Part shown: piece after piece, positions 52,820-58,474 of the stretch
Numbering within the stretch: position 1 is the first letter of the stretch
Layout of the letters: each line of letters opens with the position of its first letter
NCBI GenBank assembly: GCA_965213675.1
Contig: OZ243916.1
Span: forward strand, 3,584,001 to 3,648,000
Direction of reading: 5' to 3'
DNA: 64,000 nt
Origin: an uncultured Candidatus Binatia bacterium
Lineage (GTDB): Bacteria; Desulfobacterota; Binatia; UBA9968; JAJDTQ01
Made by a program: the position numbers and the translations under genes
Notes under the pieces: model-generated
Seen by the model: the letters and a program-made list of their open reading frames with translations, nothing else
Databases searched by the model: none
Told to the model about the DNA's origin: nothing

Positions 52820-52895
52820 CAAAACACCTCCTGAACCCATTCATTTAGGCTTTCGGCTCCGTGATTGTCAAGAAAGAGCCGGTTTCGGTAGTGAG

Positions 52896-53762
52896 TCAGT
52901 TTGAATTCCTTTTCTTGTAGGTGCCACGCTTCCTGTCTTTCTCCGATTCCCGCGCTTCGATCAATTCTACTATGTCCGCCATATCCCATACCCGTTTCGT
53001 AATTCCAGCTTCCATTGCTGGGGTGACTCGAAGGGTCTGGTGAATCCGGCAAAAGTTGTAGTGCATGAAGTGAAGCGCCACCGCGTGTGCGTGGTTCTCG
53101 ACCTTCTTTGAAAAAGCGTTGGTCAGCCGCGTGAACCGGCGCATGGACATCCGCATGGTGAGATTCTGACGCTCCACATAGCTGGTGCTGATGTGCTTCG
53201 GGTCCGGATCGCCGGTGACGGTCTGCTGCTTGGCTCCGATGCACACTGCCGGGCTGTAGCGGTGTTCGGGGTCTGCCGCGCCGTACATCTTAACGAGTTG
53301 GGCAAAGTCAACGTCCGCTCCGAAAGCGCCCTCTACGGCTTCCAGGTGCGGCTTGTGACCGTCCGTGGTCATTTGCACTCGCTCGGCCACATCGTTCATG
53401 AAGTCAGTGGCGTATCCCGCGTCACGTACGCCCACGAGCCAGGAGATGGCCAGCCTGGAATCCGCGTCGATGGCCGTCCATGTCCAAACGTCGCCCGCGC
53501 CCGTAGGGGCGGCCTTCGCACTCGCCACGTTTTTTTGCTTGGAGTAGCAGAAGCTCCAGATTTCATCGCACTGGACGCGACGGCTGTTGAGACCGCGTAC
53601 ATAGGCGTCATGGTACCCTTGGCAAGCCGCCCCTGCATCGCTCAGGAGCTTCGCCGCCGTATTCTTGCTAGCACCTGTGACTCGGACGATAGCGCGGATC
53701 GCCATGCCCTCGCACAGGAGTTGCAGAATCTGTGCCCGTTCTTTGGGAGAGAGCTTGTTCAT
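52896..53762 (-). CDS. IS1-family DDE transposase (single ORF, N-terminal HTH)
   Basis: [64 protein letters not shown]; stop codon lies inside the IR. Confidence 0.9.
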
Positions 53763-53871
53763 GGTTTTGAATGTGGCCCACCCCTTGGCCCATGTCAAGC
53801 ATAATAGTCAGTTTAATGCATTGCCATAACTAAGCAATTGACGATGACGCTCCAACGTGCCATCTTCTGGC

Positions 53872-54168
53872 ATGAAGATCGTGTTCCTTGATGAGCGCCT
53901 CGCCCTAATCCGCACAGATCAAGCGGCAAAGACGAAACTGCCGTTTTCAGTAATCAAGTCGGCGAGGGAAAAGCTGATCATCCTTGAGGCGGCGCCGGAC
54001 GAAAGGGTGCTAAGGAACTGGAAGAGTCTTCGCTACGAGAAGCTCAAAGGTGACAGACAAGACCGGAGATCGATTCGACTGAATAATCAATGGCGTATTG
54101 TGTTCCAACTCGACAACCATACCGAACCGCCGACGATCACTGTGCTGGCGGTTGAGGACTACCACTAA
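53872..54168 (+). CDS. RelE/HigB-family toxin
   Basis: SLRYEKLKGDR...SIRLNNQWRIVF...VEDYH. Confidence 0.88.
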   Translation: MKIVFLDERLALIRTDQAAKTKLPFSVIKSAREKLIILEAAPDERVLRNWKSLRYEKLKGDRQDRRSIRLNNQWRIVFQLDNHTEPPTITVLAVEDYH

Positions 54169-54185
54169 ATCAGGGAGGCTGCGAC

Positions 54186-55301: not shown

Positions 55302-55302
55302 C

Positions 55303-55464
55303 TCGCAGCGGAGACGGCAGGTCGTAGGCGATTGCCTTCAGCTCAAGACAGACGTTGATGTCTACAACGACCAACACTACGACGATGAGCCGATTCCGCT
55401 GGAACTGGACTTCACGCGTGATGTCGAGGAACTCCAGTTGGGCCAGTCGGACGAAGCGGCCTAG
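55303..55464 (+). pseudogene. C-terminal remnant of a third operon gene (start deleted)
   Basis: SQRRRQVVGDCLQLKTDVDVYNDQH...LDFTRDVEELQ...*; orphan GGAGGA RBS just upstream with no start codon. Confidence 0.6.
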
Positions 55465-55682
55465 TCTCGCTTCTTCCACCTCGTTTGGGCGGCGAGGCTT
55501 GCTATCTCCGACCGTTCTCCGGGCGATAACTTGGCCGCACGGGCTGGGCCACCCAGCTCGCCAGCCTTCCGGGCTCGCTTGGCTCGTTCGGTTTCCGCTG
55601 GCTCTTGGATGTCCCCGGTGGCGATGTCCACCATCAGCTTGGCGAGTTGGTTGGGATCGCGTGGGCGTTTCACTTTTGGCAT
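55461..55682 (-). CDS. Small basic IS-associated protein (73 aa)
   Basis: MPKVKRPRDPNQLAKLMVDIATG...GELGGPARAAKLSPGERSEIA..AA..RW; next to the IR, with a TTGACA promoter. Confidence 0.8.
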   Translation of the reverse strand: MPKVKRPRDPNQLAKLMVDIATGDIQEPAETERAKRARKAGELGGPARAAKLSPGERSEIASLAAQTRWKKRD

Positions 55683-55714
55683 AAAGGAAGGGTGCCCATG
55701 GCCCCCTGCGGATG

Positions 55715-58474
55715 TCAATGGGGCTCAGATTCAAACTGACCCATTACCCCGGCTTCGTTCCCCTGCCTCTCGCCACGATTCGATAAACCCGACCCCTGGG
55801 CGTGGAGCGAGCGGTCGGGGTGTTGCAACTCCCGCAGGCATTGCCCGGTGGCGGACGCGGCCACCCGCATCACATCCTCGGGCGTTCCGGCGGCCACCAC
55901 GCGGCCGCCGTTCTCCCCGCCCTCGGGGCCCAGGTCGACGATGTAGTCGGCGTGGCGCAGGAAATCCGGGTTGTGCTCGATGGCGATGACCGTGTGGCCG
56001 GCTTCCACCAGCCGGTGGAGGATCTCCAGCAGCCGGCTCACTTCCTCGAAGTGGAGGCCGGTGGTGGGCTCGTCAAACAGATAGAGGGCGTGGCCGCCGG
56101 GCCGCTTGCTCAACTCCCGCGCGAGTTTCACCCGTTGGGCCTCGCCGCCCGAAAGCGTCGTGGCCCGCTGCCCCAGCCGCAGGTAGCCCAGCCCCACCTG
56201 CCGCAAGGTCTCCAGCCGCGCCCGGATCAGCGGCACGTTGCCCAGCAGTTCCAGCGCTTCGGTGACGGTGAGGTCGAGTACGTCGGCGATGTTGGCGCCC
56301 TTGTAGCGGATCTCCAGGGTCTCGCGGTTGTACCGGCGCCCGCCGCAGACGTCGCAGGTCACGGATACGTCCGGGAGGAACTGCATCTCGATGTCCACCG
56401 TGCCGGCGCCCTGGCACGCTTCGCAGCGCCCTCCCGCCGCGTTGTGGGAGAAGCGCCCGGCGCCGTAGCCGCGCAACCGGGCCTCCGGCAAACGCGCGAA
56501 CAGGTTGCGCAAGGGGTCGAAGAGTCCGCCGTAGGTGGCCGGAGTGGAGCGGCTGCTGCGTCCGATGGAGCCCTGATCGACGTAGAGGACGCGGTCGAAG
56601 GCCTCGAGGCCGGTGACCGCGGTCGCGGATGCGCTCCCCGGCCGCGCCCGCCGGCGGGAACCCGCGCTGCTCCGACGCGCTGCGGTCTTGCCTTTGGAAG
56701 GCGTGGGCGCGCGTGACGCCGTCCTTGCGGCGTGGCGCGGTGCCGCCCCGTACAAGGTGTCCGCCACGAGGCTGCTCTTGCCCGAGCCAGATACCCCTGT
56801 CACGCAGGTCAGCGCCCCGATGGGGAAGTCCACGTCGAGGTTCTTCAGGTTGTGGCGCGTGGCGTTGCGGATGGAAATCGCGCCGTTGCCGGCGCGCCGC
56901 CGGGGAGAGGGCGCGGCCGTCGCCCCGGTCAGGTACGGTCCCGTGCGGGATGCGGGGTGTGCGCGGATCTCTTCCACCGACCCCGTCGCGAGCACCTCCC
57001 CTCCCTCGACACCCGCCCCCGGCCCCATGTCGATGACGTGGTCCGCGGCCAGGATCACGTCCCGGTCGTGCTCCACGACGAGCACGGTGTTGTCCGCGTC
57101 CTTGAGGTCCCGCAGCACCCCGAGGAGCCGCGCGGTGTCCCGCGGGTGGAGCCCGACCGTGGGTTCGTCGAGCACGTAGATGACCCCGGAGAGCCGCGCG
57201 CCGATATGAGCGGCCAGCCGGATCCTCTGGCACTCGCCCCCCGACAGGCTGTCGGACACGCGCGCCAGCGTCAGGTAACCCAGCTCCAGCCGCAGCAGCG
57301 CGGCGGTGCGCTCGCGGATTTCGCGCAGGACGTTCCCGGCCACCGCGGACTCGCGTGCCCCCAGGGTCAGACCTTGGATAAATCGCTGCAAGTCCTTCAG
57401 CGACAAAGCGGAAACCTGGGCGATGTCCAGTCCGCCGATCTTCACCAGGAGACTTTCCCGGCGCAGCCGGGCGCCGCGGCATGCGGCACAGGGGGGCGAA
57501 GCCTCCTTTGCGCCCGTGTCCGCGTCCGCGCCGTCCGCGCGCGCTCCCGTCGGCGCGTTCCCACGAGTCGGTCCGCGCGCCTGAACGCCGAGTCCATGAC
57601 ACGCCGGACAGGCCCCGTGCGGGCTGTTGAACGAAAAGAGCTGCGGCACGATCTCCGGGAACGGGATGCCGCAATCAAGACACGCGGCGCGTTGGCTGTA
57701 ACGGCGGAACTCCGTGCCGGCGCCGTCGCGTATTTCCACGGCCACGACCCCGTCGCCGTGTTCCAGGGCCACCTCCAGCGAGTCGGCGAGGCGCTTGGCG
57801 ACCCCCTCCCGCGCCACCAGCCGGTCCACCACCAACTCCGCCCTGCCCGGCGCAGGCGCGTGCGTCGCGTGGGCCGTCTCCGCCGCGGCGGCCCTCTCCG
57901 CGGCCTCCACAATCTCCGCGGTCTCCGCCACCTCGCCGTCCAGCCTGACACGCACGAATCCCGCGCGCATCACCCGTTGGATCTCGCGCCGGAACTCGTC
58001 CGCGTCGCCGCAACGCAAGGGGGCCAGCACCTCGATGCGCGCGCCCGCGGGCCGCTCCAGCACCGCGTCCACCATCTGCTGCACCGTGTGTACGACGATG
58101 GGCTTGCCGCAACCCAGGCAGTGAGGCCGCCCCACATGCGTGAACAGGAGCCGAAGGTGGTCGTGGATTTCCGTCAGCGTTCCCACCGTGGAACGGGGGT
58201 TCTCGTGGAAACGCCGTTGCGGCACCGCGATGGCCGGAGAAAGCCCGTGGATGGAATCCACATCGGCCCGCGCCAGCGGGTTGAGAAGCTGGCGCGCGTA
58301 GGTGGAAAGCGACTGCATGTAGTGCCGTTGTCCTTCCGCGTACACCGTGTCGAAGGCCAGCGACGACTTCCCCGATCCGGAAACCCCGGTGATGACCACC
58401 AGCTTTCCTCGGGGGATTTCGACGTCCACATTCTTGAGATTGTGTAGGCGCGCGCCTTTGACGACGATGTTCAT
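55715..58474 (-). CDS. uvrA: Excinuclease ABC subunit A; 3' tail derived from the IS
   Basis: [14 protein letters not shown] x2, [31 protein letters not shown] overlap with pdxA. Confidence 0.93.

What the first reader, a model, noticed from the sequence alone, without database searches (positions are those of the whole stretch)
52879..55756. Fully delimited IS1-family transporter element with transposase and companion gene at opposite ends and cargo between
Seen: 20-bp IRs (18/20) beginning GGTA(G/A)TG, an 8-bp target duplication with one mismatch, a single-ORF DDE transposase whose stop is inside one IR, a 73-aa basic ORF at the other end, and an opposite-strand cargo operon that is visibly more AT-rich than the flanks. 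Known: classical IS1 is ~0.8 kb, ends GGT(G/A)ATG, duplicates 8-9 bp and carries no passengers. Inference: this is a one-transposase unit transposon with a fixed two-gene backbone and an exchangeable cargo slot that spreads TA/defence-like genes.
Basis: partly seen in the sequence, partly recalled or inferred. Interest (0 to 1): 0.8.

Follow-up and report, generated by a model that had tools for sequence, protein, structure and literature searches.

The report
Promoter-targeting IS1-like cargo transposon
A 2.9-kb jumping gene distantly related to IS1, carrying a toxin-antitoxin-like phage-defence module, sits exactly 15 bases upstream of a promoter's -35 box, and over a hundred relatives with other cargo sit at the same distance from other promoters, so this is a widespread transposon family that homes to promoters.

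Summary
There are 20-bp inverted repeats (18/20) at 52887-52906 and 55729-55748, and an 8-bp duplication (7/8). A 288-aa DDE transposase has its stop inside one repeat, and a 73-aa basic ORF lies inside the other. Opposite-strand, lower-GC cargo lies between them.

In 112 independently inserted relatives from many phyla, 103 keep the small ORF plus transposase backbone. Cargo is unrelated even between near-identical transposases.

The window's cargo is a PD-lambda-2-like module: a HigB-like gene, an Xre-peptidase gene and a truncated third gene.

The transposase is a distant IS1 relative. The small ORF is not InsA.

New here: the family is target-specific. The duplication lies 7 bp upstream of a sigma70-type -35 box, with 15 bp from repeat tip to -35, in either orientation. 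A -10 element follows at the right spacing even where the -35 is poor.

In the window the target is the promoter of a cysteine desulfurase gene. A sister species has a different family member at the identical position, inverted.

The same 15-17 bp geometry is published for the unrelated TnGBS/ISLre2/ISKra4 transposases. I therefore rate this a new variant of a known kind.

The window copy looks decayed.

The parts
52842..52847 (-). -10-like hexamer TAAATG of the target promoter (host DNA, drives the cysteine desulfurase gene whose likely GTG start is at 52819)
   Evidence: Read. It is conserved in the empty sites of relatives. It lies at the family-wide register, +31/32 from the duplication.
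52866..52871 (-). -35 hexamer TTGACA of the target promoter (host DNA), 7 nt from the duplication and 15 nt from the repeat tip
   Evidence: The same hexamer is present in the 8 empty sites.
52879..52886 (.). target-site duplication, left copy CCGGTTTC
   Evidence: It matches the right copy at 7/8.
52887..52906 (+). terminal inverted repeat at the transposase end (GGTAGTGAGTCAGTTTGAAT)
52896..53762 (-). single-ORF DDE transposase, 288 aa, with an N-terminal HTH, D66/D134/E197, and a unique 4-residue deletion before D134
   Evidence: Pfam HTH_23 and DDE_Tnp_IS1. NCBIfam IS1 at 51 bits. hhalign against E. coli InsB gave probability 87.8%. The D, D and E columns are invariant in 112/112; the deletion occurs in 1/112.
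53857..54168 (+). cargo gene 1: HigB-like RelE-fold toxin homologue (likely start ATG 53872)
   Evidence: Pfam HigB-like_toxin, E 4.1e-9, 37.2 bits against a cutoff of 27.
54186..55301 (+). cargo gene 2: HigA-type Xre HTH fused to an ImmA/IrrE M78 peptidase (PD-lambda-2 B-like)
   Evidence: Pfam HTH_3 and Peptidase_M78. NCBIfam HigA at 47.8 bits. PADLOC PD-Lambda-2_B, E 8.7e-50, covering 57-397 of 402 profile positions.
55285..55464 (+). cargo gene 3 remnant: a 59-aa ORF equal to the C-terminal 53 residues of a 157-aa ORF in the G013 copy
   Evidence: tblastn gave 96% identity over 53 aa to L035. The full-length ORFs are in L035 and L038. No family match was found.
55461..55682 (-). conserved 73-aa basic backbone ORF (KRPRDPNQLAK...GGxARAxxLSxxxRxEIAxxAAxxRW), function unknown
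   Evidence: 671 homologues, none with a Pfam domain or an informative name. It is present in 103/112 elements. It is not InsA-like. The model is a four-helix bundle with pLDDT 72 and no fold match.
55729..55748 (-). terminal inverted repeat at the small-ORF end (GGTAATGGGTCAGTTTGAAT on the minus strand)
55749..55756 (.). target-site duplication, right copy CCGGCTTC

Best explanation
The feature is a 2862-bp transporter insertion sequence of a large and widespread clade distantly related to IS1.

Shown:
- Its backbone is two near-identical 20-22-bp inverted repeats, a small basic ORF just inside one repeat, and a single-ORF DDE transposase ending in the other repeat. It makes 8-bp duplications.
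- Between the two backbone genes, and in other members also after the transposase, lies a cargo region that is replaced wholesale between close relatives.
- In the window the cargo is a PD-lambda-2-like toxin-antitoxin/abortive-infection module whose third gene is truncated.
- The family inserts at a fixed register upstream of sigma70-type promoters. The duplication lies 7 bp upstream of the -35 hexamer, at about -50 to -43 from the transcription start. The repeat tip therefore ends 15 bp from the -35, in either orientation, and the core promoter stays intact.
- In the window the element sits between the 3' end of uvrA and the promoter of a NifS/IscS-type cysteine desulfurase gene.

Inferred:
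- The landmark that is read is the promoter bound by RNA polymerase holoenzyme, or the DNA deformation it causes just upstream of -35. It is not a bare DNA word, because the -10 element is in register even at sites without a recognisable -35.
- The benefit would be a safe harbour that breaks neither genes nor core promoters.
- Cargo turnover is by recombination within the conserved backbone blocks.
- The small ORF is an accessory factor, either a regulator or a target adaptor. Which of the two remains open.
- The window copy is probably old and may be inactive.
For: Anatomy and chance.

IS1 kinship:
- Pfam DDE_Tnp_IS1 scores 24.1 bits, exactly at the cutoff.
- NCBIfam IS1 gives E 1.7e-13.
- hhalign against E. 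coli InsB gives probability 87.8%, E 3.4e-6, across the D..D..E core.
- The repeat tips are shared with IS1A.
- Public annotations call homologues 'IS1 family transposase'.

Spread: 546 of 570 candidate stretches in genome contigs and 562 of 597 in metagenome contigs encode relatives.

Delimitation:
- Repeat pairs were found in 66 of 80 and 49 of 80 loci.
- After adding 9 elements from the window's order and dropping 2 duplicates, there are 112 distinct sites. 103 have an 8/8 duplication and 9 have 7/8.
- Only one pair of sites has similar flanks.

Target:
- An outward promoter score of at least 8/12 occurs in 45 of 222 flanks at offset 8, against 0-5 at each of 69 other offsets. A score of at least 9/12 occurs in 27 flanks at offset 8, against 0-1 elsewhere. 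The inward orientation gives at most 4 and 1.
- TTG at +8..+10 occurs in 72 flanks (70 of 112 sites), against a mean of 3.7 elsewhere. Exact TTGAC occurs in 34 flanks, 17 at each end and never on both sides, against a mean of 0.22 elsewhere.
- TAnnnT at +31/+32 occurs in 25 of 72 TTG flanks and in 2 of 68 opposite flanks. It also occurs in 17 of 84 flanks of the 42 sites with no TTG, against a background mean of 0.58.
- Among the 20 flanks printed for the no-TTG sites, 5 show a TGn extended -10. This is my reading of the listing.
- 87 of 112 sites show at least one hallmark.
- A -10 score of at least 4/6 occurs in 11 of 34 TTGAC at the register, against 358 of 2665 TTGAC anywhere in the loci.

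Pre-existing promoter: 8 empty sites in relatives carry TTGACA...TAAATG without the element.

Independent hit: G013 (L037) has a family member with a 61%-identical transposase and Fic cargo. Its duplication starts at the same base after ...GTCAAGAAAGAG, in the opposite orientation.

Cargo exchange.

Recent mobility in the family: L072 and L152 carry an identical 2543-bp element with different duplications.

Decay of the window copy:
- It is single-copy in the genome.
- It has 2 repeat mismatches and 1 duplication mismatch.
- It has a 4-residue deletion seen in 1 of 112 transposases.
- Its third cargo gene is truncated.
Against: - The IS1 assignment is weak. The Pfam score is exactly at the cutoff and the NCBIfam score of 51 bits is below its cutoff of 100.
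- 25 of 112 sites show neither TTG nor TAnnnT at the register.
- No gene prediction, transcription-start data or RNA data back the promoter calls. My attempt to show that the sites are intergenic was uninformative in these GC-rich sequences: 45 of 89 sites, against 522 of 822 random positions, lie in an ORF of at least 150 aa. The window's own site is among those flagged.
- The role of RNA polymerase is inferred from sequence statistics only. Selection after insertion must contribute to what is seen.
- At least 4 of the 8 elements in which my profile finds no small ORF still sit at strong promoters. The small ORF may therefore not be needed for targeting, or it was lost later.
- I could not query ISfinder, so members of this clade may already be catalogued there.
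Confidence: 0.75

Rival explanations
1. Direct DNA readout. A DNA-binding part of the transposition complex recognises the word TTGAC(A) at a fixed distance from the cut sites. This could be the transposase HTH, which also reads GTCAG in its own repeats, or the small protein. The -10 signal would then arise only because surviving insertions are those next to intergenic TTGAC words, which are mostly real -35 boxes.
For: TTG(AC) carries the highest information in the target logo. The repeats contain GTCAG at positions 9-13. Insertion next to repeat-like sequences is known for other IS families (recalled, not checked here).
Against: In the 42 sites without TTG at the register, 17 of 84 flanks still have TAnnnT at +31/+32, against a background mean of 0.58. 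Some of these have extended -10 motifs. Survivorship cannot set a one-base register for the -10 when the -35 is unrecognisable. The geometry relative to the repeat-like word does not match tip-adjacent repeat targeting.
Confidence: 0.2
2. Intrinsic DNA structure. The element prefers a bent or easily deformed stretch (UP-element-like, A/T-rich) that happens to lie upstream of promoters, without any protein landmark.
For: Many transposases prefer bent targets (recalled). The duplication falls where UP elements lie (inference from promoter geometry).
Against: Duplications and the 7-nt gap show little composition signal apart from a T at +4. Many duplications are GC-rich, such as GCGCGCCG and GGCGGCCG. 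A single-base register relative to both hexamers is not expected from curvature alone.
Confidence: 0.05
3. No target specificity. This is an ordinary IS1-type element with cargo that landed by chance between uvrA and the desulfurase gene.
For: Classical IS1 is regarded as having low sequence specificity (recalled).
Against: The offset scan gives 45 flanks at offset 8 against 0-5 elsewhere. A second family member occupies the same base position in another species, in the opposite orientation.
Confidence: 0.02

Closest known systems
IS1 family (E. coli IS1A; single-ORF IS1 subgroups listed by ISfinder, the latter recalled and not verifiable here)
   Same: The DDE core aligns with InsB. The repeat tips are GGT(A/G)(A/G)TG. 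The duplication is 8 bp. Public annotation calls homologues IS1 family.
   Different: - There is no insA/insB' frameshift pair.
- The transposase has its own HTH and about 40 extra residues between the second D and the E.
- The small ORF is unrelated to InsA, with hhalign probability 0.1%.
- Elements are 1336-4790 bp and carry cargo.
- Insertion is at a strict register upstream of promoters.
TnGBS conjugative elements, ISLre2 family and ISKra4 group (prokaryotic Mutator-like transposases; Guerillot et al. 2014, PMC3942029, passages read)
   Same: Both insert 15-17 bp upstream of the -35 of sigmaA promoters; here the distance from repeat tip to -35 is 15 bp. Elements with near-perfect repeats insert in both orientations, as here (17 versus 17 for TTGAC). 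An RNA polymerase contact was proposed there by analogy with Ty3.
   Different: The transposase superfamily is unrelated. The only NCBIfam matches at E up to 0.1 are IS1, IS6 and IS481, and the protein has 288 aa. This family has a conserved small ORF and a fast-turnover cargo region. It is found mainly in Alphaproteobacteria, Acidobacteriota and other Gram-negative phyla.
Transporter IS (tIS) as defined for the IS1595 family (Siguier et al. 2009; seen only as a citation and one sentence in PMC3129680)
   Same: A single-transposase IS with passenger genes unrelated to transposition.
   Different: The transposase clade is different. The passenger region here is bounded by a second conserved backbone gene, and turnover is documented between near-identical transposases.
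PD-lambda-2 anti-phage system of E. coli (Vassallo et al. 2022, PMC9519451, passages read)
   Same: A HigB-like first gene, an Xre HTH-peptidase fusion as second gene (PADLOC PD-Lambda-2_B, E 8.7e-50), and a third small gene in the same operon.
   Different: The first and third genes do not match the PADLOC A and C models even at E 10. The third gene is truncated in the window. Defence activity is untested.

Membership tests
IS1 family | DDE transposase homologous to IS1 InsB/InsAB' | tested here: met
   The match is weak but consistent. Pfam PF03400 scores 24.1 bits, equal to the cutoff. NCBIfam NF033558 gives E 1.7e-13 but 51 bits, below its cutoff of 100. hhalign against E. coli InsB gives probability 87.8%, E 3.4e-6, over 119 columns.
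IS1 family | Terminal inverted repeats of about 20-23 bp beginning GGT(A/G)ATG | tested here: met
   The tips are GGTAGTG and GGTAATG. They align with both ends of IS1A; positions 1-3, 6 and 7 are invariant.
IS1 family | 8-9-bp target duplication | tested here: met
   The duplication is 8 bp. It is perfect in 103 of 112 family sites and 7/8 in the window.
IS1 family | InsA (zinc finger plus HTH) upstream of insB' with a programmed -1 frameshift (classical organisation) | tested here: not met
   The transposase is a single 288-aa ORF. The small ORF has no cysteine motif and no similarity to InsA, with hhalign probability 0.1%. Single-ORF IS1 subgroups exist in ISfinder by recall, so this does not exclude the family.
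Transporter IS (IS with passenger genes) | One transposase, terminal repeats and duplication enclosing genes unrelated to transposition | tested here: met
TnGBS / ISLre2 / ISKra4 promoter-targeting elements | Insertion 15-17 bp upstream of the -35 of sigmaA/sigma70 promoters | tested here: met
   The distance from repeat tip to -35 is 15 bp. See the offset scan and motif counts and the published figure.
TnGBS / ISLre2 / ISKra4 promoter-targeting elements | Mutator-like (p-MULT) DDE transposase | tested here: not met
   Pfam and NCBIfam scans at E up to 0.1 return IS1, IS6 and IS481 models and HTH domains only.
PD-lambda-2 defence system | Three genes: HigB-like, Xre-peptidase fusion, and a third component required for defence | tested here: inconclusive
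   The B component matches strongly. The A-like gene matches Pfam HigB but not the PADLOC model. The third gene is truncated and matches no model.

The most novel reading that the evidence does not exclude
A third, evolutionarily independent transposase lineage (IS1-like) has converged on using promoter-bound RNA polymerase holoenzyme as its landing pad. It has the same 15-bp geometry as the Mutator-like TnGBS/ISLre2/ISKra4 elements. The almost invariant N-terminal segment of the small backbone protein would be the adaptor that contacts the polymerase (sigma region 4 or the alpha C-terminal domain). The family would then be a natural, widely distributed system that places defence and toxin-antitoxin cargo at safe promoter-proximal sites.
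Probability: 0.3. Interest if true: 0.8.

Novelty: new variant of a known kind. Interest (0 to 1): 0.62.

Why it matters
Site choice is the least understood step for most bacterial insertion sequences. The papers I could read describe promoter-upstream targeting only for Mutator-like elements, mostly of Firmicutes.

A second, unrelated transposase fold with the same one-base-precise geometry would imply a common physical landmark. That landmark is most simply the upstream edge of the polymerase-promoter complex. The small, two-gene system found here would make the idea testable.

The finding also identifies an abundant vehicle that shuffles toxin-antitoxin and anti-phage genes. There are at least 546 loci in reference genomes and at least 562 in metagenomes. 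The vehicle places these genes without breaking genes or core promoters.

The finding also gives a rule for annotation. The repeats GGTAGTG...GTTTGAA, together with the small ORF, mark the boundaries of cargo that is currently annotated piecemeal. Homologues of the small ORF are labelled 'hypothetical' or 'histone H1'.

Tried and rejected
- Complex prediction of the transposase with the small ORF gave no verdict (score 0.01, mark 0.32). It counts neither for nor against binding.
- The small-ORF structure model (pLDDT 72, four helices) gave no PDB fold match at E up to 0.001.
- The protein atlas returned only unnamed or 'histone H1' clusters.
- Pfam, NCBIfam and PADLOC found nothing for the small ORF.
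- The small ORF shows no similarity to InsA.
- The test of whether insertion sites avoid long ORFs was uninformative in GC-rich DNA.
- The sigma70 consensus scan of the window did not call the desulfurase promoter, because its -10 lacks the final T.
- The look-up of sequencing runs listed no RNA holder.
- Literature searches:
  - 'ISMhu11' gave 0 papers.
  - Five searches for IS1-family passenger genes or promoter targeting found nothing specific, and neither did. One search did lead, through PMC10433421, to the TnGBS literature.
  - Two papers were not held.
  - Supplementary tables of PMC3942029, which list promoter-targeting IS, could not be seen and might name related elements.
- I considered whether the promoter motif is part of the element, and rejected it. 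The motif occurs at either end, on one side only, in unrelated flanks, and it is present in the empty sites.

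
Full report
**Observation.** The region holds the best inverted repeat of the neighbourhood, with arms at 52887-52906 and 55729-55748 (20 nt, 18/20). A degenerate form of the repeat, with up to three mismatches allowed, occurs nowhere else in the 4.53-Mb genome. The reversed control pattern gave no match. The 8-mers outside the arms are CCGGTTTC and CCGGCTTC (7/8). Inside the element, on the minus strand, a 288-aa ORF (52896-53762) has its stop within the left arm. 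A 73-aa basic ORF (55461-55682) lies just inside the right arm. Between them, on the plus strand, are three ORFs. GC is 0.50-0.62 inside and 0.64-0.75 in the flanks.

**The genes.**
- The 288-aa protein has an N-terminal HTH and matches Pfam DDE_Tnp_IS1 exactly at the cutoff (24.1 bits). It matches the NCBIfam IS1 model at 51 bits, below that model's cutoff of 100.
- A profile of ten family members aligns with E. coli InsB across the D..D..E core (hhalign probability 87.8%, E 3.4e-6). The repeat tips GGT(A/G)(A/G)TG are shared with both ends of IS1A. It is thus a distant IS1 relative, and homologues on plasmids are annotated 'IS1 family transposase'.
- The small ORF has 671 homologues of similar length, none with a Pfam domain or a meaningful name. 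It is unrelated to InsA. It models as four helices at moderate confidence, without a fold match.
- Its C-terminal motif GGxARAxxL(S/T)xxxRxEIAxxAAxxRW also occurs near the N-terminus of eight 335-425-aa cargo proteins.
- The cargo is as follows:
  - a HigB-like toxin homologue (Pfam, 37 bits);
  - an Xre HTH fused to an M78 ImmA/IrrE peptidase, which matches PADLOC PD-Lambda-2_B at E 8.7e-50;
  - a 59-aa remnant of a 157-aa ORF that is intact in the closest copy.
- PD-lambda-2 is an experimentally shown three-gene abortive-infection system with this gene order. Its third gene is needed for defence (passages of PMC9519451).

**Mobility and empty site.**
- The element is single-copy in its genome.
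- In eight same-genus loci, the cysteine desulfurase promoter region and uvrA are contiguous without it. The flanks are 82-92% identical to the window.
- Three further loci did not match the anchor word I used.
- The intergenic spacer has diverged, so a single identical CCGG(C/T)TTC could not be shown. The synteny of the empty site is clear.

**Backbone and cargo across relatives.**
- In the same order, 12 loci from 10 genomes carry the transposase. Eleven are delimited by the same repeats, and 11 have the small ORF; the twelfth ends at a contig edge.
The best 80 of each were fetched.
- Repeat pairs were found in 66/80 and 49/80 of these loci. Most of the rest are cut contigs.
- After keeping duplications of at least 7/8 and dropping two duplicates, 112 distinct insertions remain: 103 with a perfect 8-bp duplication and 9 with 7/8. 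Only one pair has similar flanks.
- Lengths run from 1336 bp (repeat, small ORF, transposase, repeat, with no cargo) to 4790 bp, with a median of 2916 bp.
- The small ORF is present in 103/112. In 100/112 it lies upstream of the transposase on the same strand.
- Cargo lies between the two backbone genes only in 57 elements, there and downstream of the transposase in 48, downstream only in 4, and nowhere in 3.
- Of 287 cargo ORFs of at least 70 aa, the commonest Pfam families are the following:

| Pfam family | Cargo ORFs |
|---|---|
| HTH_3 | 30 |
| Peptidase_M78 | 21 |
| P63C | 9 |
| HigB-like | 6 |
| Fic | 5 |
| AAA/STAND | 4-5 |
| N6_N4 methylase | 4 |
| SDH protease | 4 |
| NYN | 4 |
| DUF3467 | 4 |
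| PemK | 3 |

- The two batches matched 80 and 20 families in all.
- Cargo turns over much faster than the backbone. Homologous cargo is shared by 1 of 6 pairs whose transposases are at least 90% identical, and by 3 of 42 pairs at 80-90%.
- In eight such pairs, DNA similarity stops after the small ORF and resumes, in the pairs I checked against the start codon, some 15-75 bp before the transposase start.
- L072 and L152 carry an identical 2543-bp element with different duplications, so the family has moved recently.

**Target specificity (not in the original finding).**
- I aligned the flanks of the 112 sites outward from the duplication. TTG occupies positions +8 to +10 in 72 of 224 flanks (70 sites), against a mean of 3.7 at other positions.
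- The exact word TTGAC occurs there in 34 flanks, against 0.22 elsewhere. These split 17 at the small-ORF end and 17 at the transposase end, and never occur on both sides.
- A simple promoter score counts matches to TTGACA and TATAAT with a spacer of 16-18. It reaches 8/12 in 45 of 222 flanks at offset 8, against 0-5 at each of 69 other offsets. It reaches 9/12 in 27 flanks, against 0-1. Promoters pointing inward show no peak.
- TAnnnT sits at +31/+32 in 25 of 72 TTG flanks and in 2 of 68 opposite flanks.
- TAnnnT also sits at +31/+32 in 17 of 84 flanks of the 42 sites that lack TTG altogether, against a background of 0.58. Five of the 20 printed examples have a TGn extended -10 (the last count is my reading of the listing).
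- In all, 87 of 112 sites carry at least one hallmark.
- TTGAC words at the register are followed by a good -10 more often than TTGAC words in general: 11/34 against 358/2665.
- The duplication therefore lies at about -50 to -43 of a sigma70-type promoter that fires away from the element. The repeat tip ends 15 bp from the -35.

**The window as an example of the targeting.**
- On the minus strand, TTGACA is at 52871-52866. After 18 nt comes TAAATG at 52847-52842, followed by AGGAGG and the likely GTG start of the desulfurase gene at 52819.
- The same promoter is present in the eight empty sites.
- In G013, a different family member occupies the same promoter. Its transposase is 61% identical and its cargo is a Fic protein. 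Its duplication begins at the same base after ...GTCAAGAAAGAG, but the element is inverted. This is an independent hit on the same target.

**Mechanism.**
- Shown: the anatomy, the 8-bp duplication, the register, the lack of orientation bias, and the pre-existence of the promoter.
- Inferred: what is read is the polymerase-bound promoter, or the DNA deformation at its upstream edge, rather than the word TTGAC. The reason is that the -10 is in register where the -35 is unrecognisable.
- Post-insertion selection surely enriches harmless sites, but it cannot create a one-base register.
- The rival reading is direct readout of TTGAC by the transposase HTH or the small protein. I rate it at about 0.2.
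- The role of the small ORF is open. Four of the eight elements without a detectable small ORF still sit at promoters scoring at least 9/12. This weakly argues against an obligatory role in targeting.
- Cargo exchange is most simply explained by homologous recombination within the conserved backbone blocks (inference).

**Comparison with what is known.**
- IS elements with passenger genes are an established class.
- I recall, but could not verify, that ISfinder lists a single-ORF IS1 subgroup of 0.9-4.6 kb. The search for its name returned nothing.
- Insertion 15-17 bp upstream of the -35 of sigmaA promoters is published for TnGBS elements, the ISLre2 family and the ISKra4 group. All of these are Mutator-like transposases.
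- The same paper observes that elements with near-perfect repeats insert in both orientations. It proposes a contact with the polymerase initiation complex by analogy with Ty3 (Guerillot et al. 2014, passages).
- The present family reproduces that behaviour with an unrelated, IS1-like enzyme.
- My eight searches on IS1-family passenger genes or promoter targeting found no report of this for IS1 relatives. The supplements of the 2014 paper were not visible to me.

**State of the window copy.**
- It has two repeat mismatches and one duplication mismatch.
- Its transposase has a 4-residue deletion just before the second catalytic aspartate. This deletion is unique among 112 transposases; the D, D and E columns are invariant in 112/112.
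- The third cargo gene is truncated.
- Its nearest relative, in G013, is only 78-88% identical in DNA.
- It is probably an old, possibly immobile copy.
- The uvrA reading frame now runs 11 codons into the element before stopping.

**Verdict.** The architecture is a new member or variant of the known transporter-IS kind. The promoter-register targeting by an IS1-like lineage is the notable result, and it is a new variant of a behaviour known from other transposase families.

Noticed in passing
window 55715-55760 (minus strand): The long uvrA reading frame does not stop before the insertion. It continues through the duplication and 11 codons into the inverted repeat (...[14 protein letters not shown]). 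In relatives uvrA stops about 45 bp before the site (for example ...SPDRSARA* in L047). Without the element, the window's frame would have run through the desulfurase promoter to a TAA in its -10.
   Followed up: partly
L037 5542-7305 (G013): In G013 the same uvrA-desulfurase spacer holds, beside the family member, a second mobile element with a 587-aa transposase-like ORF. The spacer there is about 4.9 kb.
   Followed up: no
L051 1482-3482 (G010): In G010 the spacer between the desulfurase gene and uvrA holds a 666-aa ORF rich in Gly/Thr/Ser repeats, with a lipoprotein-like N-terminus, instead of an IS. This spacer seems to be a recurrent site of gene gain.
   Followed up: no
L056 5709-6986, L087 5822-7033, L126 5822-6931, L164 1315-2367, L149 4744-5880, L121 5834-6913, L100 5849-6877, L196 4890-5897: Eight cargo proteins of 335-425 aa carry, near their N-terminus, the same KGGxARAxxLxxxxRxEIAxxAAxxRW motif that forms the C-terminal half of the small backbone ORF. 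It is an unannotated, mobile mini-domain.
   Followed up: partly
L072 5355-7897 and L152 124-2666: These loci hold identical 2543-bp elements (transposase and cargo 100% identical) with different 8-bp duplications (AAATGGTC and CCTGAGCT). One is in a reference MAG and the other in a metagenome contig, which is evidence of recent transposition in the family.
   Followed up: partly
window 55713-55718 (minus strand): A perfect TTGACA lies 31-36 nt inside the small-ORF-end repeat tip, upstream of the small ORF. It is also present in the G013 copy (L035). It may be the small ORF's own -35. No convincing -10 was seen in the window.
   Followed up: no
window 50019-52840 (minus strand): Two paralogous class-V cysteine desulfurase genes (410 and about 402 aa) flank a 109-aa IscA/HesB-like gene. 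The element sits upstream of the promoter of the first gene of this cluster.
   Followed up: no
L082 and L119: In two loci the small ORF lies at the far end, on the strand opposite to the transposase. The transposase start, not its stop, is next to a repeat. The transposase module can therefore be inverted relative to the repeat-plus-small-ORF module.
   Followed up: no
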